From a virus (Duplodnaviria > Heunggongvirae > Uroviricota > Caudoviricetes): DNA of 64,000 nt. Where the stretch lies: positions 225,237-289,236 of the IMG/VR virus record IMGVR_UViG_3300029288_000059, one strand, 5' to 3'. The translations under genes were made by a program, and so were the position numbers. Below are positions 16,117 to 48,044 of the stretch, in pieces. The notes below the pieces were generated by a model. The model saw only the letters and a list, made by a program, of their open reading frames with translations. It was not told the DNA's origin and did no database searches. Each line of letters opens with the position of its first letter. Positions within the stretch are counted from its first letter, which is position 1.

Positions 16117-17916
16117 TTATCTATTATAACCGTAACTGTTTCCAATAATGAATACGGGTGTATAGTCTTCATCGTCCTCGATTGTTTCCTTGAATTGGAT
16201 ATCAATAGTTTCATCCATCTTCATTAATACACCCAACATTCGAACACATAACAAGGAAGCGGATACTGCATCATCATGTGTACCTGTCTTACCACTATAA
16301 CTAGAGCCATTAACAATATATAAACTTAATTGGCGAGTTAGTTCTTTTGAACTAATAATCAATTTTTGTTTTTCCACCAAACTCTTTAATTGAGCACAGG
16401 CTTCTAACTTAGTTTGATTAGTTGTACAGTAACCACGTCTAAATCTTTTATTTTTCTTTTTAGGCTCAGACATAAATACACCAGGGAAGTTATCTTCTCC
16501 AATTTGTGATATGACAACTAAGGCTGCTTCACCCAATGTATTATTTTCAACTGTCCAATATAATTCCGACGAATCTGTTCGCGTCTTTATCGAATCATGA
16601 ATTTTTAATAGGATTTGTCTTAAGGTTTTAATTTGTGTTGGTATATCTGCATGATTGTTCAACCATTCGGCAACTTGTTTCATACCCGGAACTTCAAATA
16701 CTTGAATACAAGAAAAATCCTCACCCTGTCCCAATGACGGGTCTAATGCTACTAAATACGTCATACCTTGTTTAGGTTCAGAATACCACCTTACTTCGCC
16801 TTGTTTACATATTGGGGATATTTTATCCACGTTTGCAATAATTTGTTTCATACACATATTATCAATTAATGATTTATCTAATCCGACAAATTCACAATTA
16901 TATTCACGTTCAAACTTGGCATCACTACCCATCTTCGCACGTTCTGCAAGTTCCCACTTTTCATCACGGTCAGGATGTACTCTCCATGTCGCTTTGTAAA
17001 ATTTAAACCCATTAATTCCAGGTCCATTATTAGGTATTTCATTACCACTACCATCAATGAAAGCCTGTGATTCTCTACATATCTTAGCAAATAAATCATA
17101 TTCTGTATTAGGGGTGGATGTAATAATCATCTTCCCTCGTGTCGTTGCCAATGTAGGAGTAATTGACATATAGAATTCTTCTTGTAATTGGATAGATTTA
17201 AGAAATGCGAATTCATCACAATAAACGATTGCAGGTGATAAACCACGTCCTGCATCACTAGTAGTAGCACGTGATATTAAGACTGAACCAGTATCGAACC
17301 TCATAGAACTCTTGTTATTCTCAATTAAACCCGCCTTTATAAAATCAGGCATATTTTCATAACAATACTTAATACGTTGCATAATCTCTAATGCTTGATT
17401 TTGCTTATTGGCAACAATTAGTATGTCTTTATCCTTATGAAACATTGCATACCATAATAGATATAAACTGGTTACGGTTGTATTATGACTCAATATACCA
17501 TTGGTATAGTATAAGTGATTATTATGATTGTTTTCATCCAATGTATTCACTTCAACACAATACATATGAACCTTAATATGTAAGGGACTACAACTAACAA
17601 CTTCTTCTATATCACCATCAGTAACAATTAAATCACCCATACATAGAGTATCAACATAAACTTGATGATATGTATTATTAATAACGATATGCTTATCTGC
17701 ACATAGTAATGTATGGTTGGTTGTTTTAAGTTCCCATAAATCATAAGGGACTGTCCTAACTACTTTTGATACTATGCCAAAATCAGATTGAAAATGAACA
17801 TCTTTTACATGGGTGAACTTTTTAACATCATTCGTGATTGTATATGTTTTACGATGGTCTTCATCTAAAATATACAATAGACCTTTAATTAAAGTTCGTA
17901 TATATTGTTTAAACAT
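16117..17916 (-). CDS. Terminase large subunit, C-terminal piece. Roughly 153 aa of the C-terminal intein fragment (IntC, carrying intein blocks B, F and G and ending ...GILSHN) are fused to the C-extein starting TTVTSLYLLWYAMFHKDKD.
   Basis: Walker B and nuclease motifs (IVYCDEFAF) are present. The extein resumes exactly at the Walker A Thr (T4 gp17 has [24 protein letters not shown]). Intein motifs found are block B (LKTTNHTLLCADKHIV), ...LCMGDLIV, and blocks F/G (KVHMYCVEV...NHLYYTNGILSHN). Confidence 0.8.
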   Translation of the reverse strand: MFKQYIRTLIKGLLYILDEDHRKTYTITNDVKKFTHVKDVHFQSDFGIVSKVVRTVPYDLWELKTTNHTLLCADKHIVINNTYHQVYVDTLCMGDLIVTDGDIEEVVSCSPLHIKVHMYCVEVNTLDENNHNNHLYYTNGILSHNTTVTSLYLLWYAMFHKDKDILIVANKQNQALEIMQRIKYCYENMPDFIKAGLIENNKSSMRFDTGSVLISRATTSDAGRGLSPAIVYCDEFAFLKSIQLQEEFYMSITPTLATTRGKMIITSTPNTEYDLFAKICRESQAFIDGSGNEIPNNGPGINGFKFYKATWRVHPDRDEKWELAERAKMGSDAKFEREYNCEFVGLDKSLIDNMCMKQIIANVDKISPICKQGEVRWYSEPKQGMTYLVALDPSLGQGEDFSCIQVFEVPGMKQVAEWLNNHADIPTQIKTLRQILLKIHDSIKTRTDSSELYWTVENNTLGEAALVVISQIGEDNFPGVFMSEPKKKNKRFRRGYCTTNQTKLEACAQLKSLVEKQKLIISSKELTRQLSLYIVNGSSYSGKTGTHDDAVSASLLCVRMLGVLMKMDETIDIQFKETIEDDEDYTPVFIIGNSYGYNR

Positions 17917-17965
17917 TCAACTCAATCCTATTAACTACTTTAATATATTTACAAATTGGGATATT

Positions 17966-18385
17966 ATGTACAGAGCACTAGATCCATATCATGTCAATAT
18001 ACGACAATCATCGGGACTTTCAGATGTTTCAGATGGTATTATACGACGGGGTGAAGTTAGTCTCTTCCATTGTGGGTTAACCAAATTACCCATCTTTAAA
18101 TATATAAGTGGTAATCTTGATATTAATAGCAATCTATTAACCAACCTTAACGGCTGTCCTATTTACGTTGGTGGTAATTTATATTGTAGTGATAATCTAT
18201 TATCTAATTTAGATGGTGGGCCACTCTTTGTTTATGGTAATTACTTCTGTGGGCACAATCAATTAATAAGTTGGGATGGTGGGCCCCAGTACGTGAAAGG
18301 TAAATTAATATGTAATAATAATCGTTCCTGGATACTTCACAACCCCACCAATATTTTTATGGGTAAAGGATGTTCAATTGGTTAG
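17966..18385 (+). CDS. LRR-like repeat family protein (MYRALDPYHV...). It lies inside the gap of the fractured terminase gene.
   Basis: It contains 22-aa repeats (LTNLNGCPIYVGGNLYCSDNLLSNLDGGP...). The start was set at the family-type N-terminus at 17966. The longer track ORF, beginning at 17813, overlaps the terminase gene. Confidence 0.55.
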   Translation: MYRALDPYHVNIRQSSGLSDVSDGIIRRGEVSLFHCGLTKLPIFKYISGNLDINSNLLTNLNGCPIYVGGNLYCSDNLLSNLDGGPLFVYGNYFCGHNQLISWDGGPQYVKGKLICNNNRSWILHNPTNIFMGKGCSIG

Positions 18386-18758
18386 AAATTTAGAACCATA
18401 TATTGAACCATATATTGAACCAACTCCTGAATGGAACACAGACGCAATTCATCTGTTTAATGGATTTACTTATGTAATAAAAAGAGGAGGTTATTGTCTT
18501 GGATGGATGAATTTGGGTGAACTTCCTTCGTCTTTCAAATATGTAAGTAAGACATTTAATTGTAGCAATAATCAACTAACAACGTTAAAGGGATGTCCTA
18601 TTTATGTAGGTGGTAATTTCTGGTGTGAACGTAATCAATTAACCAGTTTAAATAATTGTCCTGTTTATATTGGTAACAATTTTATATGTCGAGACAATAC
18701 ATATAAACTCATCCCACCTAAAGAAGTTACTATAATCGGGGAGTTATATAATGATTAG
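18378..18758 (+). CDS. LRR-like repeat family protein (MVRNLEPYIEPYIEP...).
   Basis: It has the family N-terminus and repeats such as NNQLTTLKGCPIYVGGNFWCERNQLTSLNNCPVYIGNNF. An 8-nt overlap links it to the upstream copy. Confidence 0.55.
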   Translation: MVRNLEPYIEPYIEPTPEWNTDAIHLFNGFTYVIKRGGYCLGWMNLGELPSSFKYVSKTFNCSNNQLTTLKGCPIYVGGNFWCERNQLTSLNNCPVYIGNNFICRDNTYKLIPPKEVTIIGELYND

Positions 18759-18823
18759 AAATTTAGAACCATATATTATTAATCATATCACTTGTATAAT
18801 GGGTCTATATCGATAATTTAATC
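18758..18823 (+). pseudogene. Truncated 5' fragment of an LRR-family gene (MIRNLEPYII...), running into the 108-bp tandem repeat.
   Basis: ATGATTAGAAATTTAGAACCATATATT matches the family N-terminus, then diverges and reaches a stop after 21 codons. Confidence 0.4.
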
Positions 18824-18993
18824 AACAAACGTTCCAAGTAATCTACTACTTTTTGTTTTAAATTTAAGTGAAAGACGTTAGATATTATTAATCATATCAC
18901 TTGTATAATGGGTCTATATCGATAATTTAATCAACAAACGTTCCAAGTAATCTACTACTTTTTGTTTTAAATTTAAGTGAAAGACGTTAGATA
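18778..18993. repeat. Two-copy direct tandem repeat with a 108-bp unit.
   Basis: The unit attaatcatatcacttgtataatgggtctatatcgataatttaatcaacaaacgttccaagtaatctactactttttgttttaaatttaagtgaaagacgttagatatt occurs twice back to back. Copy 2 encodes the last 26 codons and stop of the terminase N-piece ORF. Each unit contains a TGTATAAT extended -10-like element. Confidence 0.85.
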
Positions 18994-19282
18994 TTGTATC
19001 ATACTTCTTATTAATGGTGATTATTGTATTACCAATTACACATTTTCCCAACTGGCGAGCACACATTATGCAACTGTTTTGATTCTTATGTATTACTTCG
19101 ATTAAGTCATGTACATAGTCATAAACTTGATATTTTGTCTTGCCAGCTTTATTAACATAACAATAATTCTTCATAAAATATTCGGGGTCGTTTTTACATC
19201 TTTTAAACTCAATCAATTCCTCTTGAGACATAGGAGTAGACGAGTATGGTGGTTTAACCTTAGAAACTATTGGTTCATCCAT
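18914..19282 (-). CDS. Terminase large subunit, N-terminal piece. An 80-aa N-extein ending ...CARQLGK (Walker A) is fused to a short N-terminal intein fragment (IntN) starting CVIGNTIITINKKYDTISNVFHLNL.
   Basis: The extein matches T4 gp17 (PEYFMKNYCYV, then RQLGK). Residue Cys+1 followed by V-I-G-N-T-I-I forms intein block A. The remainder of the ORF is encoded by the 108-bp repeat. Confidence 0.75.
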   Translation of the reverse strand: MDEPIVSKVKPPYSSTPMSQEELIEFKRCKNDPEYFMKNYCYVNKAGKTKYQVYDYVHDLIEVIHKNQNSCIMCARQLGKCVIGNTIITINKKYDTISNVFHLNLKQKVVDYLERLLIKLSI

Positions 19283-20717: not shown

Positions 20718-21194
20718 TTATCGATTAAAGAAACAACCACCTATCTTAATTCCTTTAGGACGTGGTAATTTTATTTTATTATCACTACAATATAAACTAC
20801 CACCAACATATATTGGACAACCTTTTAAACTGGTTAGTTGGTTATTCTGACAAATTAAATTTCCACCTATACGGGTAGTACATCCTTTTAGACTGGTTAA
20901 TTGGTTATAACCACAATTTAAACCACCACCTATATAAGTAGCACAACCCTTCAAATTTGTTAATTGGTTATCACCACAAATTAAATCACGACCTATATAT
21001 GTAGGACAACCTTTTAAACTTGTTAATTGGTTATAACTACAATCTAATCCACCACCTATATACTTGAAATGTGGTAACATTAGTAACCCAGTAGATAAAT
21101 CTACATCACCACGTACGATGATATTTCTATTAAATATACGAAAAACATCAGCTCTATATGGTTTATATTCAATTGGTTCCAAAGTCCTATACAT
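20718..21194 (-). CDS. LRR-like repeat family protein (MYRTLEPIEY...), four or five repeats.
   Basis: It contains LDCSYNQLTSLKGCPTYIGRDLICGDNQLTNLKGCATYIGGGLNCGYNQLTSLKGC... Confidence 0.55.
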   Translation of the reverse strand: MYRTLEPIEYKPYRADVFRIFNRNIIVRGDVDLSTGLLMLPHFKYIGGGLDCSYNQLTSLKGCPTYIGRDLICGDNQLTNLKGCATYIGGGLNCGYNQLTSLKGCTTRIGGNLICQNNQLTSLKGCPIYVGGSLYCSDNKIKLPRPKGIKIGGCFFNR

Positions 21195-21786
21195 TCATCG
21201 TCACCATCGTATTATTATGTTGTTCGAGTAGTATTAAATTTAACTGTACTACGATTGTTTTTGCATAGCTATATGCGTGAGCTTTTTTAAAAAAGTACGA
21301 ATTATCACACGGCTTAATCCATATCTCTTTTTCTACATCACACCATTGTTTTCCAATTAGATGTTTCTTACCTGGGCGTATTATAGCTAAGAACATTGCC
21401 ATTTGGCCTATATTAGTAACTACCATTCGTTGTAATAAATCATAATGTTTATTAATTTGTGTTAGTTTCAATACATAATCCTTATTTTTTAACAACGTCC
21501 AATCGGGTTCATTATCCGCTAATACCCGTAATACTTCTCTATCTGTTATATCTTTATAGATAGTGTTATGTAATAAATCAATCTTTATATGACCTAACTC
21601 TTCAGCTTTTTTATAATCTAATGAACATAACCCCGTTATTGGGTCGGTGGGGACATTATGAAAGTATACACCCGATATATGTCGTTCTATATCATTATTA
21701 AACATTGACGCATTGATATGTTGTAATTTACTTAATAAGTCTTCTCTATTTTTCATATCAATATCAATATCTGGTAGATGTGACAT
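21187..21786 (-). CDS. Miniaturised DnaE (DNA polymerase III alpha)-like protein, 199 aa. It retains PDIDID, H.GGV...P, G.IKIDLL, ALFRPG-like and KAHAYSYA motifs in DnaE order but lacks the intervening segments.
   Basis: Segment alignment by eye to E. coli DnaE: PDFDVDF / HAGGVVIAPTKITDFAPL / GLVKFDFLGLRTLT / IALVALFRPGP / [25 protein letters not shown]. Confidence 0.45.
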   Translation of the reverse strand: MSHLPDIDIDMKNREDLLSKLQHINASMFNNDIERHISGVYFHNVPTDPITGLCSLDYKKAEELGHIKIDLLHNTIYKDITDREVLRVLADNEPDWTLLKNKDYVLKLTQINKHYDLLQRMVVTNIGQMAMFLAIIRPGKKHLIGKQWCDVEKEIWIKPCDNSYFFKKAHAYSYAKTIVVQLNLILLEQHNNTMVTMNV

Positions 21787-22499
21787 TATATACTCCTCAA
21801 TAAAGAAGCTATATCACCGAAAGATGGCGTACATTTAATCTTCACACCCCATGCCGCGTCATTAAGATAATCCCGAAGATAATACTTAAAATCTTCCGAT
21901 AGATTGGCTATCATAGTATTACCTAACTTAGTCGTGTATAAAAACCACGGACTAATGCGTCCCATCTTAACAAGATTACCTAAGTACATACCATATACTA
22001 CCGTATACACTTTATCCACTTCGATATTATTTTTAGTAGCTATCTTCTGTAATGTTTCCAATGAGCGAATTATTGCATCAGTAGGAAGTTCTTTATATAT
22101 GTAATCTAATAACCATTCTTTATAACAATCGTCATTACACCAAGTCTTATACTTAAAATGATTATCCATTGCCCAGTTTATATATTGCATTATGTCGGGA
22201 CAATGAATATTGAATAAGTATTCTGCTACTTTTGTATAGTGAGTATATTCTCTACCTTTTATAAACTTATCTAACAAGTCCACATCAAACTTATAATGCA
22301 TATAGACCTTTTTATTTGATTCTTGCCACATATAAAATGCGAGTTTGGCAACATTAGTATCCTTATTATCATACCGTGTCTTATACATACAAGTATGATT
22401 TAAGAACGACTTCTCCCTCGTGAATTTTTTACCACAGAACTTACAGACATTCTTTATATTGTTTTCTGAGTTTGACTCTGTCTTTATCATCGATTGCAT
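21786..22499 (-). CDS. Hypothetical protein with an N-terminal C2H2-like zinc finger (CKFCGKKFTREKSFLNHTC).
   Basis: Cys/His spacing. Confidence 0.45.
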   Translation of the reverse strand: MQSMIKTESNSENNIKNVCKFCGKKFTREKSFLNHTCMYKTRYDNKDTNVAKLAFYMWQESNKKVYMHYKFDVDLLDKFIKGREYTHYTKVAEYLFNIHCPDIMQYINWAMDNHFKYKTWCNDDCYKEWLLDYIYKELPTDAIIRSLETLQKIATKNNIEVDKVYTVVYGMYLGNLVKMGRISPWFLYTTKLGNTMIANLSEDFKYYLRDYLNDAAWGVKIKCTPSFGDIASLLRSI

Positions 22500-22920
22500 A
22501 CGACCTCATTAACTCTTCCAAATTCTCTAACGTTAACTGTCTAAACAATAACTTAGTTTCAGTATCGTTTAAATTTGGATAAACAGTATCTATAAATTGT
22601 TCTAATGGTGTTTTGGCTTTCTTATTGGTGCCTTTAATCCATTGATGTTTTACTACTTTGCCAGTACCCAACATCGCCATCAATTTAGCTACTAACTCTG
22701 GGTGTTTATACTTATCCCAAAAGTTTTTATTGACTAACTCATTAGTCATCATTAGGAAATAAGCGTGTTGGTTATTATTATCGGGTGCGTTACTCATCCA
22801 TCTCATAATAACGAGTGGGACAAACGCTTTCTTCTGTTCTACTGTTAGATTGTCATAGAAAGAATAATTACGTTTGTCCATATTATTTAGAACATCGAAT
22901 ATGTCTAGTTTTTCACTCAT
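22441..22920 (-). CDS. Hypothetical protein. It weakly resembles a clamp-loader small subunit (T4 gp62).
   Basis: Loose similarity only: VPLVIMRWMS...QHAYFLMM versus gp62 MPAVYAMNLIG...EAHFNYLMA. Confidence 0.3.
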   Translation of the reverse strand: MSEKLDIFDVLNNMDKRNYSFYDNLTVEQKKAFVPLVIMRWMSNAPDNNNQHAYFLMMTNELVNKNFWDKYKHPELVAKLMAMLGTGKVVKHQWIKGTNKKAKTPLEQFIDTVYPNLNDTETKLLFRQLTLENLEELMRSYAIDDKDRVKLRKQYKECL

Positions 22921-23673: not shown

Positions 23674-23982
23674 TTAACGTGATTCTTTACTAATGTCAAA
23701 ATCATTTATTGATTTTATTGCACTTTCCATTCGTTCTCTTGCAACAGGGTTAGCACTATGAACTTTCATAATTGGTGGTTTATAATTATTGAAATGAACT
23801 TCGCGTTCAATCCAGGTAAGAACATCGTATCCTGTAATTTTATCATTACCCAAATCATGGTCAAGTGATATTTCATCTACTTCCATGGTTTTAAGACATT
23901 CAATTACATCCTTCGGCCATCTACATAGGGTCCAACCAACTGGTGGGGTACGCATATCATCTAAATATAACTTCATATTCAT
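23674..23982 (-). CDS. Small conserved-domain protein (LDDMRTP...ISLDHDLG...TGYDV..WI...VHSANP).
   Basis: The motif pattern suggests a Rossmann-like or receiver-like domain of unknown function. Confidence 0.35.
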   Translation of the reverse strand: MNMKLYLDDMRTPPVGWTLCRWPKDVIECLKTMEVDEISLDHDLGNDKITGYDVLTWIEREVHFNNYKPPIMKVHSANPVARERMESAIKSINDFDISKESR

Positions 23983-24027: not shown

Positions 24028-24507
24028 TTAACTACTGAATTTGCCAATAATATTAACCCCATCAGGACGAAGTAATTTTATTTTATTATTCTTACAATAT
24101 AATCTACCACCTATATATGTAGCACAACCATCTAAACTAGTTAATTTGTTATCGTTACAATATAAACCACCACCCACACTAGTAGCACAATATCTTAAAC
24201 TAGTTAATTTGTTATTACCACAATATAAATCACCACCAACATATATAGGACAACCTTCTAAACTTGTTAGTCGGTTATAATGACAATATAAATCACCACC
24301 AACATATATAGGACAACCTTTTAAACTTGTTAATTGTTTGTTACAAATACTTAAGCTATGACTTATATACTTGAAATTTGGTAATGTTTTTAATGGTAAC
24401 ATATCCAAATCTATATCTATATAACCACGTACGATGGTATTTCTATCAGTCAATCTAACAGTTAAATTAGCTTCAACAATGTTATATGGTTCTAAATTCC
24501 TAACCAT
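24028..24507 (-). CDS. LRR-like repeat family protein (MVRNLEPYNIVEANLTV...).
   Basis: Five repeats. The start overlaps the stop of the topoisomerase subunit gene. Confidence 0.55.
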   Translation of the reverse strand: MVRNLEPYNIVEANLTVRLTDRNTIVRGYIDIDLDMLPLKTLPNFKYISHSLSICNKQLTSLKGCPIYVGGDLYCHYNRLTSLEGCPIYVGGDLYCGNNKLTSLRYCATSVGGGLYCNDNKLTSLDGCATYIGGRLYCKNNKIKLLRPDGVNIIGKFSS

Positions 24508-25874
24508 TACTTCACCAGTTTACGTAACTTAACTAATTCAGACTTATATATATCACGTTGTTTGTCCTCTGAATTATATATATCAGTATACGAAGTTATT
24601 GTATTCTTTAACTCCACAATCTTATTAGTTACGACTGTATACTCATCACGTGACCATTTATATAATGGTAATGATTCAATTTTAATACAGTTTTCGTCAC
24701 TAATATTAGGACACGTTAATCTTATAATATCAGTTAGTTCTTGTCTCGATTGTATATTTTTTAATTTAGCATATATACCATTATCATGACACTTCTTAAG
24801 ACATTCCCAATATACTAATTCAGTAGAGGTGACATCCAATAACTGTTTATACCGTAATTTATAATAAGTTAAACGTTTAGTTACAAACTCCGTTACTATA
24901 TCTATAGCACTATTCATCTTTCGAATAGTCTTGCCATCCCAATCAATTACTACCAATCTATCTGTTTTACGAGTGACCAATTTTAACATAGATAAAAGTT
25001 GTTCATCTGTTTTTTCAGCTAATGTACCACGTGGGAGTTTAATTTCTATGTTGGTAGTCTTTGAAGAACGGTCAGTAAAATCCAATATTACTTTATTATT
25101 TTCCAGTTCGATTAAACGTTCTTTAATAACTTCACAATCAACTTCTGGTGGCAAGTCAGTGACATATATTGTATCATACGTACTTCTTGTTAACCTACCA
25201 TAAAATTCCCATACATCATCTGATATCTTCTTAGTAACTACATTTAAATATGTATAATCGGGTTGTAAATCTGTTAGTTTTTTACCATCTAAAACTTTAA
25301 TAGAAGCATCAATTAAACTATGTAAACTACGTGGTAGGATATCAGTTGACCAACCAACTGCAATACCACTAGTACTATTTAATAATACAGTTGGGATGAT
25401 TGGTAAAAAATGGGCAGGTTGTAAGCGTGAACCATCATAGTTTTCCTTCATTGGTACAATGTCATTATCAACATACATAATCTCTTCTAATATATGTGAT
25501 TTCTTAACATAAGTATAACGTGGGGATGCAATTTCCTTTGGAAACGTCTTAGTACCAAAAGTACCAATACCATCTAACCAACATACGTTATTATCATAAG
25601 GGGCTGCCATACCACTAATTGCACCAGCAGCACTAACATCACCATGTAAGTATAAATTAGAACTAATCATTTCCCCTGCTAATGATATAGTTTTAATCTT
25701 ACCTTGTATTGGTTTAATAACATATAATGCCTTACGTTGTGAATCCTTCAATCCATCAGCGATATTGGGTATCGCACGATATTCACACGTATAAATTGAA
25801 AAATCCTTCGATGATTCATTTATATGTTTTGATGGGTCAATTTTAACTACAATTTCAGACATCGAACTCTCCAC
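24507..25874 (-). CDS. DNA topoisomerase II medium subunit (T4 gp52-like, equivalent to the GyrA breakage-reunion domain).
   Basis: The GyrA/ParC N-terminal motif IPNIADGLKDSQRKALYV is present. The gene overlaps the upstream GyrB-like gene by 20 nt. Confidence 0.85.
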   Translation of the reverse strand: MESSMSEIVVKIDPSKHINESSKDFSIYTCEYRAIPNIADGLKDSQRKALYVIKPIQGKIKTISLAGEMISSNLYLHGDVSAAGAISGMAAPYDNNVCWLDGIGTFGTKTFPKEIASPRYTYVKKSHILEEIMYVDNDIVPMKENYDGSRLQPAHFLPIIPTVLLNSTSGIAVGWSTDILPRSLHSLIDASIKVLDGKKLTDLQPDYTYLNVVTKKISDDVWEFYGRLTRSTYDTIYVTDLPPEVDCEVIKERLIELENNKVILDFTDRSSKTTNIEIKLPRGTLAEKTDEQLLSMLKLVTRKTDRLVVIDWDGKTIRKMNSAIDIVTEFVTKRLTYYKLRYKQLLDVTSTELVYWECLKKCHDNGIYAKLKNIQSRQELTDIIRLTCPNISDENCIKIESLPLYKWSRDEYTVVTNKIVELKNTITSYTDIYNSEDKQRDIYKSELVKLRKLVK

Positions 25875-27774
25875 TCATCCATAATTTTCTATCATCCGCT
25901 CGTTTATTATTAAATATCAAATCCAATGTTGCTTTCATTTTACCATCATCAAATATTTGTATTACTCGTGGATTAGTTAAAGCATATTCCCAATCTACGG
26001 GCAATAACGTCCCTAACCCTTTAGCTCTAGTAATAGCCCATCCTTTAGAATCAAAACTATCAAACTCGTGTACATCATTACCATACCAATATTTCCGTGT
26101 CTTACCCTTTTCTGCAATAATAAACGGGGTTAAGAATATATGAAAGAATGGTGGTTCCTTTGGGTCAAATAAATCGGGGAAGAACTTATAGAAAAAGTTA
26201 ATTAACAATGCGGCAATATTAGACCCGTCTTGGTCCATATCTGTTGCAATATAAACTTTACCATATCTCAAATTTGCTCTTATTGGTTTTTGTCCTATTA
26301 CTAATCCAATGGAGTTCATAATAGAACATAACTCTTCATTTTCCAATACACGTTTAGGAGTTAAATCACTTACATTCATAACTTTACCACGTAAGGGCAA
26401 ACCGCCATGCACTTCAGGATTGCGGGCATCCGATAAACCAGCTAGTGCAGAATTACCTTCTGCAATTAATAAAATACAATCTTTTCTAAAACGGGCAGTT
26501 GCATCCATCAATTTAGGAATCTTTAAACGAAGATTCTTCTTTGCCATTTTAGCAACTTCATCCGTATCTTTTTTAAATGTTCGTTCCCGTGTTCGTTCTA
26601 GTATTCTTTCTACCCATTCTTTATTCTTTTTAATTATATTCTTATAAATCTCACTATCACTTAAATTATTACGGATAAGTGGTTTAACTTCTTCATTAAT
26701 TAATTTAGTCTTTGCTTGATTGGCAAAGTATGGAGCTTTCATATTCGTTATATTAAAAATTAACAATTCCTCTTGTATGTCTTGCTTAATAGGAGTTAAT
26801 TTTTGTTTTGATGCTTCTTTAGTAATGGCTTCTAATATGCCACTATAAAATACACGTTTAAACTCGTCTACGTGTTCACCACCCTCAAAGGTTGGTACAT
26901 TATTAACAATGGAGTGAGTATAGTCTGTAACACCGTTAAAATCGGTCACAACATAGAATGTTGATTTAAAATTGGGTTGGTCTATTGCCAATTCTAAACC
27001 ACTAAAGTTATTAAACAATGTATTGATTGGTGTTTTATTGACTTTAATACGTTGTCCATTCATAATCACTTTAATAGTTGGATTACAGGTAGCAATCTCA
27101 ATCAATCTACTTTTTAATAATTCCATTGGCAATGTTAAATGTTCGAATACTTTCTTTGATGGTTTAAAAGAAATCTTTGTACCTGATTTTGATTTACTGG
27201 GAGTAATGACTGGTTTTTTAATAACCAATTCATCCATTACAACATTACCTTCATGGAATTCTTGTATAAACTTCTTACCATCTCTATGTATTTCAACATT
27301 GAACCATTCACTACAATAGTTAGTAACTGCTGCACCTAATCCATTTAGTCCTGCACCAGTACGTTCATCATCATTAAAGTTACGACCTGCTTGTTTATGT
27401 GACAATGCCAAAGTAGCCATATGACATTCATACTCGTCCGACCAAGTAATTGGGATACCACGTCCATTATCACTAACAGACATTTCCATTGTTTCTTCGT
27501 TATAATCAAATGTTAATGTATCACCAAATCCTTTACCGACAATCTCATCTAATGCGTTATCTAATATTTCCCTAGTATAAGTTAATAATGCAGGCACCCA
27601 TGTTAATTCTTTAACTTGTGCTTGTCCCGTTTCATCAAACAATAATATAGATTGAGTATGTCTTGCTCTGGAACCTAAGTACATTTCAGTACGTTGGCGA
27701 CTATGAGAATAGTCCGATAATTTAGTGATTATATCATCAGTATGTTTATTCATTATAACAAAATCCTTAAACAA
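25855..27774 (-). CDS. DNA topoisomerase II large subunit (T4 gp39+gp60-like fused protein, with GyrB-like ATPase and TOPRIM domains).
   Basis: GHKL motifs (ILDNALDEIV, DNGRGIP) and TOPRIM (LIAEGNSALAGLSDARNP...LRGKVMNV) are present. The protein is 639 aa. Confidence 0.9.
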   Translation of the reverse strand: MFKDFVIMNKHTDDIITKLSDYSHSRQRTEMYLGSRARHTQSILLFDETGQAQVKELTWVPALLTYTREILDNALDEIVGKGFGDTLTFDYNEETMEMSVSDNGRGIPITWSDEYECHMATLALSHKQAGRNFNDDERTGAGLNGLGAAVTNYCSEWFNVEIHRDGKKFIQEFHEGNVVMDELVIKKPVITPSKSKSGTKISFKPSKKVFEHLTLPMELLKSRLIEIATCNPTIKVIMNGQRIKVNKTPINTLFNNFSGLELAIDQPNFKSTFYVVTDFNGVTDYTHSIVNNVPTFEGGEHVDEFKRVFYSGILEAITKEASKQKLTPIKQDIQEELLIFNITNMKAPYFANQAKTKLINEEVKPLIRNNLSDSEIYKNIIKKNKEWVERILERTRERTFKKDTDEVAKMAKKNLRLKIPKLMDATARFRKDCILLIAEGNSALAGLSDARNPEVHGGLPLRGKVMNVSDLTPKRVLENEELCSIMNSIGLVIGQKPIRANLRYGKVYIATDMDQDGSNIAALLINFFYKFFPDLFDPKEPPFFHIFLTPFIIAEKGKTRKYWYGNDVHEFDSFDSKGWAITRAKGLGTLLPVDWEYALTNPRVIQIFDDGKMKATLDLIFNNKRADDRKLWMSGEFDV

Positions 27775-27838: not shown

Positions 27839-28129
27839 CTAGGAGTTCATAAATCCACCCCGAATCTTAACTCTTTTAGGGCGAGATAATTTAACTTTGT
27901 TATTATAACATTTTAAATTACTACCTATATAAGTAGCACAACCTTCTAAACTAGTTAATTGGTTATCAAAACAATATAAATCACCACCTACATACTTGAA
28001 ATGTGGTAACTTGAGTAAATTCATCCTACCATAATAAACATCACCACGTACTATAATATTTCTATCGAATATACGAACGTTACCAACATTATATAATTCA
28101 TATTCAATCGGTTCCAAGGTTCTATACAT
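27839..28129 (-). CDS. LRR-like repeat family protein (MYRTLEPIEYELY...), two repeats.
   Basis: It has the family N-terminus and C-terminus (NKVKLSRPKRVKIRGGF). Confidence 0.55.
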   Translation of the reverse strand: MYRTLEPIEYELYNVGNVRIFDRNIIVRGDVYYGRMNLLKLPHFKYVGGDLYCFDNQLTSLEGCATYIGSNLKCYNNKVKLSRPKRVKIRGGFMNS

Positions 28130-28532
28130 TTATAAATTCACCACCTATCTTAACTCCTTTAGGACGAGATAATTTAACTTTGTTACCATAACAATATAAA
28201 CTATCACCTATATATGTAGCACACCCATCTAAACTGGTTAATTGATTATACCTACAATATAAAGTACTACCTATATAAGTAGGACAATATTCTAAACTTG
28301 TTAGGCAATTACGGTCACAAACTAACCTACCTACATATATAGGGCAACCTTTTAAACTCGTTAGTTTGTTATTACGACAATTAAAATACCTACCTACATA
28401 CTTGAAATGAGGTAACGTGGTTAGTTTCCTGTTAAATAAATCTACATTGCCCCTAGTAATTATATTGCTATCAGTCAATCTAACAGTTAAATTAGATTTA
28501 ACAATGTTATATGGTTCTAAATTTCTATTCAT
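28122..28532 (-). CDS. LRR-like repeat family protein (MNRNLEPYNIVKSNLTV...).
   Basis: Four repeats. An 8-nt overlap links it to its neighbours. Confidence 0.55.
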   Translation of the reverse strand: MNRNLEPYNIVKSNLTVRLTDSNIITRGNVDLFNRKLTTLPHFKYVGRYFNCRNNKLTSLKGCPIYVGRLVCDRNCLTSLEYCPTYIGSTLYCRYNQLTSLDGCATYIGDSLYCYGNKVKLSRPKGVKIGGEFINV

Positions 28533-29193
28533 TTATAAATTCACCCCGAATCTTAATTCCTTTAGGACGCGATAATTTAAGGTTGCTGTGATTACAATCT
28601 AGATAACCACCTATACTAGTAGCACATCCTTCTAAATTTGTTAATTGGTTATAACGACAATATAAATCACCATTTATACGGACAGGACAACCCTTTAAAC
28701 TGGTTAATTGGTTATAACTACAATCAAAAACTCCACCTATACTAGTAGCACAACCCTTTAAACTTGTTAATTGATTATGACTACAATCTAGATTACCACC
28801 TATACTAGTAGCACAATATTTTAAACTAGTTAGTTGGTTATTATAACAATATAAACCACCACCTATATATGTAGCACAACCCTTTAAACTAGTTAATTGG
28901 TTATTACCACAATCTAACCTACCACCTATATAAGTAGCACAACACTCTAAACTTGTTAAATGGTTCTTATTACACCATAAATAACCACCTATATATGTAG
29001 GACATCCTTCTAAACTTGTTAATTGGTTAAAACTACAATCGAAATCGCCACTTACATACTTGAAATGAGGTAATGTATGTAGGTTACTGTCAGATAAACG
29101 TGCATTACCTCTTATAATAATATTATTATAAGTAGACTGAATCCTAATGCACCAATCATCATTCGTATTATAGGGTTCTAAACTACGATACAT
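28525..29193 (-). CDS. LRR-like repeat family protein (MYRSLEPYNT...), eight repeats. It is the longest copy.
   Basis: It contains tandem xxNQLTSLKGCATxIGGxLxCxx repeats. Confidence 0.55.
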   Translation of the reverse strand: MYRSLEPYNTNDDWCIRIQSTYNNIIIRGNARLSDSNLHTLPHFKYVSGDFDCSFNQLTSLEGCPTYIGGYLWCNKNHLTSLECCATYIGGRLDCGNNQLTSLKGCATYIGGGLYCYNNQLTSLKYCATSIGGNLDCSHNQLTSLKGCATSIGGVFDCSYNQLTSLKGCPVRINGDLYCRYNQLTNLEGCATSIGGYLDCNHSNLKLSRPKGIKIRGEFINE

Positions 29194-29742: not shown

Positions 29743-30075
29743 TTACTCATCCAAAAATACTTGTGCGGACTTCAACTCAGGCTGATTAAATATATCATCA
29801 ATACGCCCCTCACTATCAGTAACTTTTATCTTGTCTTCACAATCGGAACATAATCCAACTTTACCAAAAAATAATAGTTTCCCACATCTATCACAAACGT
29901 GGTCATTTAATGTTCGTTCTAATAATGATAGGAATAATGTTCGTTCATAGATTGACATTACTTGTATGTTATCTATAGAACTTCTAATTAATTCATTCGT
30001 AGAACGTCTGTGAGGTTCATCACTTTCTTCCTTAAACATATTATTAGATGTAAAGTCGATATTACGGGTTACCAT
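29743..30075 (-). CDS. Zinc-ribbon protein (CDRCGKLLFFGKVGLCSDCE).
   Basis: A CxxC...CxxC pattern is present. Confidence 0.4.
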   Translation of the reverse strand: MVTRNIDFTSNNMFKEESDEPHRRSTNELIRSSIDNIQVMSIYERTLFLSLLERTLNDHVCDRCGKLLFFGKVGLCSDCEDKIKVTDSEGRIDDIFNQPELKSAQVFLDE

Positions 30076-30851
30076 TTAATGACCGTCCGTATCTTATCAA
30101 AGAAACTACGTTTATTAACCTTATCTCTAATACTCTGTGATTCATTAATAGCGGTACGTATATCCGAACGGGCATCTAAAAACGCATCGACCTTATATCC
30201 GTTCAATTTATCCCGAAGTTCATCCAATGTAAGATTAACTTTAATTTCTTGTACTGGATTCTGATTAGTATGTTGTTTGAAGTTAGTAATAAACTTATCT
30301 AATGTTAAATCACAATACTCATCCGCCCAATCACCCAAGTAATATAATCGTTCGTATAATTCAGTTGAGTTGGTTCTTATAAAGGCACCAAACAAAATTG
30401 GGTCTTTTTCACGAAGTTCCCTTTTAACTTGACGTTCGACTTTACCCGTATAATCAGTAAAGAGAACATAGTAGTTATCGAATATTCCTTTTGTCTTTGT
30501 AATTGTATCTACTAATTCATCAGGAATCTCTCTTGGATAACGATTAAGTTCGATAATTTTAACTTCTTTATTTCCAATATGATTTATATACATCGTGATG
30601 TCATCGGAGTATACATATTTTGTAATACCCATTTCTAATAACTTATATTCACGTTCTATACATTCAATGAAGAATGTCTTCATCTTTATTAGTTGTTCGG
30701 TTTGCCCTGTCTTATAGGCTTTATCCGCCAAATAGTTAATATTCTGTAATATATCATTTAACTTATAATCCGACATTTCTTCTGTCTTGCTTTTGACATA
30801 ATCAAAATAAGTTAAAGGGTCAATTGTTTCATTATCTAACTTCGTTACCAT
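30069..30851 (-). CDS. Hypothetical protein, 260 aa.
   Basis: Long ORF. It overlaps the downstream gene by 7 nt. Confidence 0.45.
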   Translation of the reverse strand: MVTKLDNETIDPLTYFDYVKSKTEEMSDYKLNDILQNINYLADKAYKTGQTEQLIKMKTFFIECIEREYKLLEMGITKYVYSDDITMYINHIGNKEVKIIELNRYPREIPDELVDTITKTKGIFDNYYVLFTDYTGKVERQVKRELREKDPILFGAFIRTNSTELYERLYYLGDWADEYCDLTLDKFITNFKQHTNQNPVQEIKVNLTLDELRDKLNGYKVDAFLDARSDIRTAINESQSIRDKVNKRSFFDKIRTVIKW

Positions 30852-46526: not shown

Positions 46527-48044
46527 ATGAAATCAGTACTAAAAAGAAATTACTCATTAAATCCATTAAAGATTGGTGAATTACCTGAATATGAAGACGT
46601 TAAGTATCTATACTTGACATTACTATTACCACTAAATGAAGTAATGGAAATATTTGGAATTAAACGGTCTAAATTAGATGATACCATTAAAAAGTATAAT
46701 TTAAGAAGAACATGGGAACAAAGAGTATATGTCACCCAACGCACCAATATGCAAAAGTATGGTTGTCTTAATCCATCAGGAACTCCTGAATTTAAAGAAC
46801 GAGTAAGACAAACCAGTTTAGAAAAGTATGGGGTTGATAACGTATCCAAATCAAAAGAAGTATTGGATAAAATTAAACAAACCAATTTAGAAAGGTTTGG
46901 GGTAGAATACGTAATGCAATCTAACGTTAATAAATTAAAAGCCAAACAAACATTTAAAGATAAGTATGGAGTCGCATCGCCGTTTCAAATTAAAGAAGTA
47001 CAGAACAAATATAAGGCTCAATGGGTTGAAACGTATGGTTGTTCACATCCCATGAAAAACAAAGAAGTTCAAAATAAATTAAAACAAACGTTCATTGAGA
47101 TATATGGAGTTGATAACCCAAATAAGAATGAAATAATTAAACAAAAAACTCATAATACTCGATGGCCATCTTACTTCAAACAAGTTAAAGATAGATGTAC
47201 TGATGTTGAATTTATGTTTAGTATTGATGATTATAAAGGGGTTAGTTATACTTATCCATTCAAATGCAATAAATGCGAAACTGAATTTACCAATACATTA
47301 GATGATGGAAGAACGCCCCAATGTCCAATTTGTCATCCTAAAGAACCCTATATTGCTAGCAAGCCTCAATTAGAAGTAATGAATTATGTTCAATCTTTAA
47401 TTCCTAATGTAGAAATTATTAAAGATACGAGAAAAGTAATCAGCCCATTAGAGTTAGATATTTACATACCAAGTATGAATATCGCTATTGAGTTTTGTGG
47501 TTTATTTTGGCACAGTAATAGAAATCTTCCTTATAATTACCATTATGAAAAGTATAAAATTTGTAAAGATATGGGTATTAGATTAATTACTTTATTTGAA
47601 GACGAATGGACTTATAATCAAGAAGTAGTTAAACATAAATTAAAAGAAGTTTTAAATTTATTACCTATCGTTGACGTATCTAATTGTACTATCATTAAAG
47701 ATATACTTGTTAATTCGTTCCTACAACGTCATTCATTTAATTCAAGTACATATACTAGTAATATAAGTATCCTACTGTATGGTGAAATAATAGGGGTTAT
47801 GTGGATAGATAACGGATACGTCTATTATTGTTCGAATTATAATATTATTGGATATGAAAAATTATATCATCAATTTAAGGGACATAATATAATAGTAGAC
47901 AATAGATGGGATATAGTACCGTCTAATAGTAAATTGCTATGTGAAGAAATTACGTTCGATTATACGAATTGTAATATAAGAACCTACATAGAATGTGAAT
48001 ATAGAATTTATAATTGTGGTATTCAAATCAGAAGTCTTGTTTAG
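46527..48044 (+). CDS. Hef-like homing endonuclease with N-terminal KYGV repeats and a Vsr-like PD-(D/E)xK core.
   Basis: Repeats such as QTSLEKYGVDNVSKSKEVLDKIKQTNLERFGVEY are present. The core reads PLELDIYIPSMNIAIEFCGLFWHS. It is a paralog of the 54849..56663 product. Confidence 0.6.
   Translation: MKSVLKRNYSLNPLKIGELPEYEDVKYLYLTLLLPLNEVMEIFGIKRSKLDDTIKKYNLRRTWEQRVYVTQRTNMQKYGCLNPSGTPEFKERVRQTSLEKYGVDNVSKSKEVLDKIKQTNLERFGVEYVMQSNVNKLKAKQTFKDKYGVASPFQIKEVQNKYKAQWVETYGCSHPMKNKEVQNKLKQTFIEIYGVDNPNKNEIIKQKTHNTRWPSYFKQVKDRCTDVEFMFSIDDYKGVSYTYPFKCNKCETEFTNTLDDGRTPQCPICHPKEPYIASKPQLEVMNYVQSLIPNVEIIKDTRKVISPLELDIYIPSMNIAIEFCGLFWHSNRNLPYNYHYEKYKICKDMGIRLITLFEDEWTYNQEVVKHKLKEVLNLLPIVDVSNCTIIKDILVNSFLQRHSFNSSTYTSNISILLYGEIIGVMWIDNGYVYYCSNYNIIGYEKLYHQFKGHNIIVDNRWDIVPSNSKLLCEEITFDYTNCNIRTYIECEYRIYNCGIQIRSLV

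What the first reader, a model, noticed from the sequence alone, without database searches (positions are those of the whole stretch)
21187..21786. Miniature DnaE-like ORF retaining Pol III alpha motifs in the correct order
The 199-aa protein contains, in DnaE order:
- PDIDIDM (the catalytic PDxDxDF);
- HISGVYFHNVPTDPITGL (DnaE has HAGGVVIAPTKITDFAPL);
- LGHIKIDLLHNT (GLVKFDFLGLRT);
- MAMFLAIIRPG (MIALVALFRPGP);
- YFFKKAHAYSYAKTIVVQLNLILLEQH ([26 protein letters not shown]).

The roughly 90-250-aa segments between these motifs in real DnaE are missing.

It could be a decaying remnant of an acquired dnaE with multiple in-frame deletions. It could also be a domesticated mini-protein, for example a regulator or decoy binding host replisome partners. 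T4-like phages use a B-family polymerase, so any DnaE-related gene here is unexpected.
Basis: seen in the sequence. Interest (0 to 1): 0.55.

Follow-up and report, generated by a model that had tools for sequence, protein, structure and literature searches.

The report
Half of a split mini-polymerase

Summary

It is not a decaying remnant. The family has at least 4,600 members of about 190 aa and dN/dS is about 0.11.

It belongs to phrog_11778. This is the C-terminal unit of the "minimal split DNA polymerase III alpha" that Iyer et al. (2021) described in group 2.2 jumbo phages. The partner N-terminal unit (about 175 aa, Pfam PF07733, GxGRGS motif) ends exactly where this ORF begins. It co-occurs with the C-half in cultured jumbo phages. 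I could not find it in this window or in the 10 kb to its left.

Two further observations, which I did not find in the parts of Iyer et al. that I read:
- The C-half nearly always follows a C2H2-type zinc-finger gene and a gene annotated as clamp-loader small subunit.

Polymerase activity is inferred, not shown.

The parts
21187..21786 (-). Coding sequence for the C-terminal (Mg2+-binding and template-binding) unit of the split minimal Pol III alpha-like polymerase, 199 aa.
21757..21771 (-). Codons for D6-I-D8-I-D10. These correspond to E. coli DnaE D401, D403 and D405, which include the two catalytic aspartates of the palm.
   Evidence: Translation. Mapping to E. coli. D6 and D8 are each present in 110 of 112 diverged relatives. 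D401 and D403 are named as active-site residues in PMC8485763.
21577..21585 (-). Codons for K68-I-D70. These correspond to E. coli K553 and D555, the third catalytic aspartate.
   Evidence: Translation. K68 and D70 are present in 112 of 112 relatives. Mapping to E. coli. D555 is named as an active-site residue in PMC8485763.
21370..21378 (-). Codons for R137-P138-G139, the finger-domain RPG motif (E. coli R639-P640-G641).
   Evidence: Translation. Profile alignment to E. coli residues 596-641. R137 is present in 109 of 112 relatives and P138 in 111 of 112.
21277..21288 (-). Codons for K167-K168-A169-H170, the finger 'O-helix' motif (E. coli N757-K758-S759-H760). H760 is the proposed steric gate against ribonucleotides.
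   Evidence: Translation. Alignment to E. coli residues 752-767. H170 is present in 105 of 112 relatives. H760 is described as the steric gate in PMC8485763.
21793..21798 (-). Shine-Dalgarno sequence GAGGAG, 6 nt upstream of the ATG. The ATG overlaps the stop codon of the upstream gene (TAATG).
   Evidence: Sequence read directly.
21786..22499 (-). Conserved upstream partner gene, 237 aa (phrog_11058). It has an N-terminal C2H2-type zinc finger (C-x2-C-x12-H-x-C) followed by a helical domain. Its stop codon overlaps the C-half start codon, which suggests translational coupling.
   Evidence: PHROG match, E 6e-40. Homologues lie upstream of the C-half in Turkey3, Atu_ph07, PA5oct and a 219-kb metagenomic scaffold. 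A homologue lies within 700 nt upstream in 41 of 43 IMG/VR loci. Zinc-finger match, E 1.2e-4.
22441..22920 (-). Conserved second upstream gene, 159 aa (phrog_11758). Its homologue in Escherichia phage Turkey3 is annotated as sliding-clamp-loader small subunit. I could not verify that identity.
   Evidence: PHROG match, E 2.9e-31. Homologues in the same position in four other genomes. Present within 2 kb upstream in 42 of 43 loci. A profile search of the PDB gave no informative hit.

Best explanation
The ORF encodes the C-terminal subunit of a two-piece, stripped-down C-family (Pol III alpha-like) nucleotidyltransferase found in RaK2/PA5oct/Atu_ph07-like jumbo phages with a T4-like core.

**What this half contributes (shown):**
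- the beta-strands that carry the three metal-binding aspartates (D6, D8, D70) and the adjacent lysine (K68);
- the two finger helices that in Pol III alpha contact the incoming dNTP (the RPG motif and the K-x-H motif with the steric-gate histidine).

**What it lacks (shown):**
- the PHP domain;
- the thumb;
- most of the fingers;
- the beta-clamp-binding, OB and tau-binding domains.

**The partner (shown in relatives, inferred for this genome):**
- The missing first part of the palm carries the GxGRGS nucleotide-binding loop. A separate gene of about 175 aa supplies it, normally tens of kilobases or more away, next to a GroES-like gene and the gp44 clamp-loader gene.
- The two polypeptides are inferred to associate non-covalently. 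There is no room for intein fragments. The assembled domain is inferred to have the same geometry as the Pol III alpha palm and fingers.

**Inferred function:** the complex is a metal-dependent, dNTP-selective, template-directed DNA polymerase of low intrinsic processivity. It would work as a second, accessory polymerase beside the phage's family B replicase, for example in primer extension, gap filling or repair.

**Inferred expression:** in this window the gene is probably translationally coupled to a conserved zinc-finger protein, which may supply DNA binding.
For: **Family membership**
- Match to phrog_11778, E 3.6e-61.
- Iyer et al. 2021 describe exactly this split minimal Pol III alpha in group 2.2 jumbo phages.

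**Fold**
- The AF2 model has pLDDT 88.3.
- Foldseek agrees.

**Active site kept**
- D6, D8, K68, D70, H36, R137, P138 and H170 are present in 105-112 of 112 representatives that share at most 50% identity.
- They map to E. coli D401, D403, K553, D555, H511, R639, P640 and H760.

**Selection**
- Median dN/dS is 0.11 over 117 pairs.

**The partner half**
- Atu_ph07 gp316 and its relatives pass Pfam PF07733 (37 bits against a cutoff of 23.9) over profile positions 16-94.
- They end ...GxGRGS...DLDxxEFLK, which is just where this ORF starts with PDIDID.
- Each half is found in 96 phage records, with almost the same genus counts. At least 14 records appear in both printed lists.
- Both halves lie on one 218,918-bp metagenomic scaffold.

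**Natural fusions**
- Three independent 375-376-aa proteins join the N-half and the C-half through a 10-residue linker.
- The fused gene sits at the C-half locus.
- BLASTP of the fusion against E. coli DnaE aligns residues 68-205 with DnaE 292-417, across the split point (E 2.7e-10).

**Context in the window**
- The ORF lies in a tight minus-strand cluster with the topoisomerase II subunits. A primase and a DnaB helicase lie further downstream.
- It has a strong ribosome-binding site and a TAATG stop/start overlap.
Against: - No biochemical or genetic data exist for any member of the family. I found only genome descriptions and the computational paper.
- The partner N-half of this particular genome was not found. 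It is absent from the 64-kb window and from the 10 kb to its left. It was not among the listed hits of two database searches.
- The C-half does not reach Pfam's threshold. Sequence-only E-values against solved Pol III alpha chains are weak, 0.09-2.6.
- Without a thumb or a clamp-binding domain, it is unclear how the enzyme holds a primer-template. Templated DNA synthesis is therefore an inference from conserved residues.
- Expression has not been shown.
Confidence: 0.78

Rival explanations
1. A nucleotidyltransferase that is not a templated DNA polymerase. The split mini-enzyme would use the Pol-beta-type active site for another reaction, such as untemplated 3' tailing, primer or RNA synthesis, nucleotide-signal synthesis, or a counter-defence modification.
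For: - The thumb, the clamp-binding domain and most of the DNA-binding surface are missing.
- These phages already carry a family B replicase.
Against: - The finger elements specific to C-family polymerases are retained and conserved. These are the RPG motif and the K-x-H helix with the dNTP sugar-sensing histidine. They would not be needed for small-molecule chemistry.
- Both halves sit in replication gene clusters, near the clamp loader, primase, DnaB, UvsW and topoisomerase II genes.
Confidence: 0.13
2. A catalytically inert decoy or regulator. The mini-protein would mimic DnaE in order to bind host replisome partners.
For: - It is small and has lost most domains.
- The phage has its own family B polymerase.
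Against: - The catalytic aspartates and lysine are invariant or nearly so in 112 diverged relatives.
- The regions of DnaE that bind epsilon (PHP domain), the beta clamp and tau (C-terminal domains) are precisely the ones that are absent.
- The family spans phages of Proteobacteria and many aquatic metagenomes. Such host diversity is hard to reconcile with mimicry of one host's partners.
Confidence: 0.04
3. A decaying remnant of an acquired dnaE gene with several in-frame deletions.
For: Only the reduced length and the absence of a Pfam hit.
Against: - The same length and architecture occur in 4,635 clusters and in 96 cultured phages.
- dN/dS is about 0.11.
- The gene has a strong ribosome-binding site and sits in a tight operon.
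- The model is confidently folded.
- The gene order around it is conserved in 41-42 of 43 loci.
Confidence: 0.01
4. In this genome the C-half works alone, or with a partner other than the canonical N-half, because the N-half has been lost.
For: - No N-half was found in the window or in the 10 kb to its left.
- Gene order here differs from RaK2/121Q-like phages. The topoisomerase II genes sit just upstream of the C-half module, whereas in Turkey3, RaK2 and XbC2 they sit upstream of the N-half.
Against: - About 200 kb of the contig was not examined.
- In cultured phages the halves lie about 32-44 kb apart (RaK2, Turkey3, PA5oct relatives). They are 136 kb apart on the metagenomic scaffold and about 180 kb apart in Atu_ph07. 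Absence from 74 kb therefore says little.
- Without the GS-loop half the palm is incomplete. The C-half model alone has pTM 0.74, against 0.86 for the fusion.
Confidence: 0.04

Closest known systems
[quoted passage not shown]
   Same: - About 190 aa, starting a few residues before the DxDxD motif.
- Carries the Mg2+-binding and template-binding part of the catalytic module.
- Found in a myovirus genome with a T4-like core: gp23-type capsid protein, tail sheath, rIIA/rIIB and topoisomerase II.
- Profile match E 3.6e-61.
   Different: - Only 35-47% identical to the proteins of cultured phages and at most 55% identical (typically 46-53%) to metagenomic ones.
- It sits directly after the zinc-finger gene, with the topoisomerase II genes about 3 kb upstream. 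This order is also seen in part in PA5oct, but not in 121Q-like phages.
- The partner N-terminal unit of this genome was not located.
Bacterial DnaE and PolC (C-family replicative polymerases; Pfam PF07733 and PF02811; structures 2HNH, 2HPI, 3F2B)
   Same: - Pol-beta-type palm with D401, D403 and D555 equivalents and a K553 equivalent.
- Finger RPG motif and K-S-H 'O-helix' motif.
   Different: - No PHP domain, no thumb (E. coli about 418-505) and no finger segment at about 645-750.
- Nothing after about residue 780, so no beta-binding, HhH, OB or tau-binding regions.
- The palm is divided between two genes.
- The C-half fails Pfam's PF07733 threshold.
Cyanobacterial split dnaE joined by a split intein
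   Same: The C-family polymerase catalytic subunit is encoded by two separate genes far apart in the genome.
   Different: - Here the break lies inside the palm, just before PDxDxD.
- Only 5 residues precede the motif and the N-half ends at ...EFLK. No intein fragments can be present.
- Assembly must therefore be non-covalent.
Bacillus subtilis DnaE working beside PolC (a two-polymerase replisome)
   Same: Functional analogy only. A second, less processive C-family enzyme assists the main replicase, for example by extending primers (PMC5627055 abstract).
   Different: - B. subtilis DnaE is a full-length enzyme.
- In the phage the main replicase is a family B enzyme.
- No experiment links the phage mini-enzyme to primer extension.

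Membership tests
Split minimal Pol III alpha, C-terminal unit (phrog_11778; Iyer et al. 2021) | Significant full-length match to the family profile | tested here: met
   phrog_11778 E 3.6e-61, residues 6-185 against profile positions 8-191 of 197. 4,635 homologues of 186-214 aa.
Split minimal Pol III alpha, C-terminal unit (phrog_11778; Iyer et al. 2021) | Stand-alone protein of about 190 aa that begins at the DxDxD motif and carries the third Asp and the finger helices | tested here: met
   PDIDID at residues 5-10, K68/D70, the RPG motif and K-x-H170.
Split minimal Pol III alpha, C-terminal unit (phrog_11778; Iyer et al. 2021) | Host genome is a group 2.2-type jumbo myovirus with a T4-like core | tested here: met
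   The contig is 272-290 kb. It carries a gp23-type capsid protein, tail sheath, large terminase, rIIA/rIIB, topoisomerase II, DnaB and primase.
Split minimal Pol III alpha, C-terminal unit (phrog_11778; Iyer et al. 2021) | A separate N-terminal (GxGRGS, PF07733) unit encoded elsewhere in the same genome | tested here: inconclusive
   Not present in the window or in 10 kb beyond its left end. Not recovered from database searches. About 200 kb of the contig could not be read. Co-occurrence is shown in relatives.
Split minimal Pol III alpha, C-terminal unit (phrog_11778; Iyer et al. 2021) | Accompanied by a family B DNA polymerase in the genome | tested here: inconclusive
   No family B polymerase was found among the window ORFs I scanned. 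Only part of the window's ORFs and a quarter of the genome were examined. Relatives have one.
C-family DNA polymerase (DnaE/PolC) | Pol-beta-type palm with three catalytic acidic residues in the DnaE arrangement | tested here: met
C-family DNA polymerase (DnaE/PolC) | GS nucleotide-binding loop in the same polypeptide | tested here: not met
   No G-R-G-S motif occurs in the ORF or anywhere in the window. In the family the motif lies on the separate N-half.
C-family DNA polymerase (DnaE/PolC) | Reaches the Pfam PF07733 (DNA_pol3_alpha) gathering score | tested here: not met
   No PF07733 hit even at E of 10 or below. The N-half relatives do pass, with 35-37 bits against a cutoff of 23.9.
C-family DNA polymerase (DnaE/PolC) | N-terminal PHP domain, thumb domain, and C-terminal beta-binding, OB and tau-binding domains | tested here: not met
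   The protein is 199 aa. The collinear alignment leaves no room for E. coli residues 1-399, about 418-505, about 645-750 or beyond about 780.
C-family DNA polymerase (DnaE/PolC) | Template-directed DNA polymerase activity | not testable with these tools
   I found no biochemical data for any member of the mini family.

The most novel reading that the evidence does not exclude
The split mini-Pol III would be the catalytic core of a previously unrecognised multi-subunit second polymerase in jumbo-phage replisomes. The conserved C2H2-type zinc-finger protein encoded immediately upstream would replace the missing thumb and DNA-binding domains. The two halves, each encoded next to a clamp-loader subunit gene (a gp62-like gene beside the C-half, gp44 beside the N-half), would be tethered to the clamp loader or clamp. 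These phages would then replicate with a mixed replisome of a family B polymerase and a family C polymerase. The natural 375-aa fusions would be the smallest self-contained C-family polymerases known.
Probability: 0.2. Interest if true: 0.7.

Novelty: new member of a known kind. Interest (0 to 1): 0.35.

Why it matters
**For annotation.** Many cultured-phage records label this gene "hypothetical protein" or even "putative membrane protein". The correct label is the C-terminal subunit of a split Pol III alpha-like polymerase.

**For biology.** The family is abundant: hundreds of clusters at 50% identity, in phages of Proteobacteria and in many marine and freshwater metagenomes. It is strongly conserved and completely uncharacterised experimentally.

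If the roughly 370 residues spread over two chains, or the natural single-chain fusions found here, do polymerise DNA, they would define the minimal functional core of the bacterial replicative polymerase family. They would also show that large T4-like phages run two unrelated polymerase families side by side. Iyer et al. additionally proposed the mini-enzyme as a model of the ancestral state of Pol III.

The conserved gene trio (a gene annotated as clamp-loader small subunit, a zinc-finger protein, then the C-half) gives concrete candidates for interaction tests.

Tried and rejected
**Searches with the ORF itself**
- Pfam scan of the ORF: no polymerase hit.
- Single-sequence search of the PDB: no hit.
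- Nucleotide search against cultured phages: no near relative.

**Search for the partner N-half**
- phmmer with Atu_ph07 gp316, a GRGS motif scan, and a 7-sequence HMM over all six frames of the window and of locus L050 (window about -9.7 kb to +10.6 kb): nothing convincing. The one E 0.009 hit is a P-loop protein.
- Looking up the rightmost window gene showed that the ENA contig ends about 0.5 kb beyond the window's right end.
- The window's own contig is not in IMG/VR.
- The N-half profile search listed only the best 120 of at least 7,914 hits. None came from a contig of 289,811 or 272,293 bp.
- The single metagenome scan kept the best 80 of more than 574 hits, again without this contig.

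**Technical failures**
- Two mixed alignments (A3, A5) placed the N-halves on the C-half region and were discarded. Alignment A4 was checked and used.

**Uninformative results**
- The promoter and terminator scan found fewer sites than expected by chance.
- Rfam found nothing in the window.
- A profile of the gene annotated as clamp-loader small subunit found no solved relative, so that label stays unverified.
- The PA5oct omics paper and the Sharanji and CBB genome papers give no expression or functional data for this gene.

**Idea rejected**
- Intein-mediated trans-splicing is ruled out on length grounds.

Full report
**1. The observation**

The minus-strand ORF at 21187-21786 encodes 199 aa. 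I re-translated the key codons:
- DIDID at 21757-21771
- KID at 21577-21585
- RPG at 21370-21378
- KKAH at 21277-21288

They map as follows:

| Window residues | E. coli DnaE residues |
|---|---|
| D6, D8, D10 | D401, D403, D405 |
| H36, G39 | H511, G514 |
| G65, K68, D70 | G550, K553, D555 |
| R137, P138, G139 | R639, P640, G641 |
| K168, H170 | K758, H760 |

D401, D403 and D555 are the active-site aspartates. H760 is the proposed steric gate against ribonucleotides and is said to be invariant in Pol III alpha (PMC8485763).

Between the motifs, two segments of about 80-90 aa are absent: the thumb (about 418-505) and a finger segment (about 645-750). The other two spacings are only 11 and 16 aa shorter. 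The main losses are the first roughly 400 and the last roughly 380 residues of DnaE.

**2. Is the resemblance more than chance?**

Sequence methods alone are weak:
- Pfam finds nothing.
- A single-sequence PDB search finds nothing.
- A 56-sequence family profile ranks Pol III alpha chains first, but only at E 0.09-2.6, in collinear pieces.

Structure settles the question:
- An AlphaFold2 model built on that alignment has mean pLDDT 88.3.
- Foldseek independently puts 4iqj and 2hpi first, with probability 0.97-1.00.

The homology is real.

**3. It is a conserved family, not a remnant**

- The ORF matches PHROG family phrog_11778 ("DNA polymerase") at E 3.6e-61 over its whole length.
- It has 4,635 relatives in the 5.8-billion-protein collection. 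All listed relatives are 186-214 aa.
- It has 572 relatives among 50%-identity representatives.
- It is present in 96 cultured jumbo-phage records at 35-47% identity. These include RaK2, K64-1, PA5oct, Atu_ph07, XacN1, 121Q/PBECO4-like phages, GAP32 and CBB.
- In 112 full-length representatives that share at most 50% identity, the key residues are kept as follows:
  - D6 and D8 in 110
  - K68 and D70 in 112
  - H36 and R137 in 109
  - P138 in 111
  - H170 in 105
- Pairwise dN/dS among metagenomic relatives has a median of 0.11 over 117 pairs.

These data exclude a decaying pseudogene. They also argue strongly against an inert decoy.

**4. What it is: half of a split enzyme**

Iyer et al. [quoted passage not shown] They describe it as split into separate proteins encoded by distant genes. 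One is an N-terminal NTP-binding unit and the other a C-terminal Mg2+- and template-binding unit.

I reconstructed this independently:
- Atu_ph07 gp316 was called "DNA polymerase III alpha subunit" in that phage's paper. It is a 177-aa protein ending ...GVGRGSCVSS...DLDFSEFLE.
- In E. coli the same stretch (G-R-G-S at 361, FERFLN at 388) is followed directly by PDFDVDF at 400. The N-half therefore stops exactly where the window ORF begins (MSHLPDIDID).
- N-half relatives pass Pfam PF07733 over profile positions 16-94 of 260.
- N-halves occur in 96 phage records with almost the same genus counts as the C-half. At least 14 accessions appear in both printed lists.
- One 218,918-bp metagenomic scaffold carries both halves, 136 kb apart.
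- Only five residues precede the DxDxD motif. No intein fragment can be present, so any assembly must be non-covalent.

**5. Natural fusions**

The profile search of 1.84 billion representatives returned one protein of 375 aa whose match lay at residues 189-372.
- Its sequence is an N-half (...GVGRGSSSAS...KLNIKEFIK), a 10-residue linker, then a C-half (DFDIDTKNRE...).
- Two further versions, 78-81% identical and from independent assemblies, exist.
- The fused gene sits at the C-half locus, followed by the same two conserved downstream genes.
- BLASTP of the fusion against E. coli DnaE aligns residues 68-205 with DnaE 292-417, running straight across the split point (E 2.7e-10 for the pair).
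- An AlphaFold2 model of the fusion has pLDDT 87.4 and pTM 0.86.

**6. Genomic context**

The window comes from a jumbo-phage contig of 272-290 kb with 31.8% G+C and a T4-like core:
- gp23-type capsid protein
- prohead protease
- tail sheath and tail tube
- large terminase
- rIIA and rIIB
- topoisomerase II subunits
- endonuclease V

A primase and a DnaB helicase lie just beyond the left end of the window.

The C-half lies in a tight minus-strand gene run. Its ATG overlaps the stop codon of the upstream gene (TAATG), and a GAGGAG Shine-Dalgarno sequence lies 6 nt upstream.

That upstream gene (21786-22499, phrog_11058) encodes a 237-aa protein with a conserved C-x2-C-x12-H-x-C finger that matches C2H2-type zinc fingers (E 1.2e-4). 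The gene before it (22441-22920, phrog_11758) is homologous to a gene annotated as clamp-loader small subunit in phage Turkey3. I could not verify that label.

This trio is conserved:
- It occurs in Turkey3, Atu_ph07, PA5oct and the 219-kb scaffold.
- The zinc-finger gene lies within 700 nt upstream in 41 of 43 IMG/VR loci with enough upstream sequence.
- The clamp-loader-like gene lies within 2 kb upstream in 42 of those 43 loci.

The N-half has its own conserved neighbourhood. It is followed by a short ORF, a GroES-like gene and, in most of the genomes examined, the gp44 clamp-loader gene. Each half is therefore encoded beside a clamp-loader subunit gene.

**7. What I could not show**

- The N-half of this genome was not found. 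It is absent from the window and from 10 kb beyond the left end. The ENA contig ends about 0.5 kb beyond the right end. The database searches did not list the copy from this contig.
- In relatives the two genes lie 32 kb to about 180 kb apart, so this absence is uninformative.
- I found no experimental work on any family member. Polymerase activity, the non-covalent assembly and the role beside the family B polymerase are inferences.

**8. Verdict**

"DnaE-related and unexpected" is right in spirit, but already published.
- The best explanation is that the ORF is the C-terminal, metal-binding subunit of a split, minimal C-family polymerase, probably active as an accessory DNA polymerase.
- It is a new, fairly divergent member of a known kind.
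- The natural fusions and the conserved zinc-finger and clamp-loader neighbourhood are modest additions that make the family easier to test experimentally.

Noticed in passing
window 16117-19282 (-): The large terminase gene appears to be in two pieces. ORF 18914-19282 matches the N-terminal part of the terminase profiles (phrog_36964 positions 15-110 of 890). ORF 16117-17916 matches positions 418-877. About 1 kb separates them and holds two plus-strand ORFs (17966-18385 and 18507-18758) with no family match for the first. Rfam finds no intron there. This could be an intervening mobile element or a genuinely split terminase.
   Followed up: partly
window 21786-22499 (-); also L002:4942-5652, L001:4446-5198, L061:4838-5641, L064:4274-4981: A conserved 235-267-aa protein (phrog_11058, function unknown) with a single N-terminal C2H2-type zinc finger and a GRISPW motif. 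It is encoded immediately upstream of the C-half in nearly all loci examined (41 of 43). It is a candidate accessory subunit of the mini-polymerase.
   Followed up: partly
L063:519-1649 (+); proteins P0287, P0391, P0392: Natural single-chain fusions of the N-half and C-half (375-376 aa) on three independent metagenomic contigs of low G+C content (27% for L063). I did not find them mentioned in the parts of the 2021 description of the family that I read.
   Followed up: yes
window 20718-21194, 24028-24507, 28122-28532, 28525-29193 (all -): Four paralogous small proteins made of leucine-rich-repeat-like units ('N-x-L-T-S-L-x-G-C'). They match phrog_7816 and phrog_21719, and the first also matches Pfam LRR_4. 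They are scattered through the replication gene cluster. The first two are closely related to each other (E 1.7e-49), and the first overlaps the 3' end of the C-half gene by 8 nt.
   Followed up: no
window 23674-23982 (-): A 102-aa protein with a strong match to Pfam PF20274 (cREC_REC, cyclic-phosphate processing receiver domain), E 7e-31. It lies between the topoisomerase II genes and the mini-polymerase module.
   Followed up: no
window 46527-48044 (+) and 54849-56663 (-): Two large ORFs (505 and 604 aa) resembling homing or HNH endonucleases (phrog_3339; the second carries Pfam DUF7487). The second lies directly beside the major capsid protein gene (56774-57952).
   Followed up: no
window 30069-30851 (-): A 260-aa protein with a full-length match to phrog_10081, annotated as transposase (E 9e-69). 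It lies between the rII genes and the topoisomerase genes.
   Followed up: no
window 24507-27753 (-) compared with L051, L055 and L056: Gene order differs from RaK2/121Q-like phages. There the topoisomerase II genes are followed by a large structural protein and then the N-half. Here they are followed within 3 kb by the C-half module, and a roughly 20-kb block with terminase and tail genes separates the C-half from the primase and DnaB genes.
   Followed up: partly
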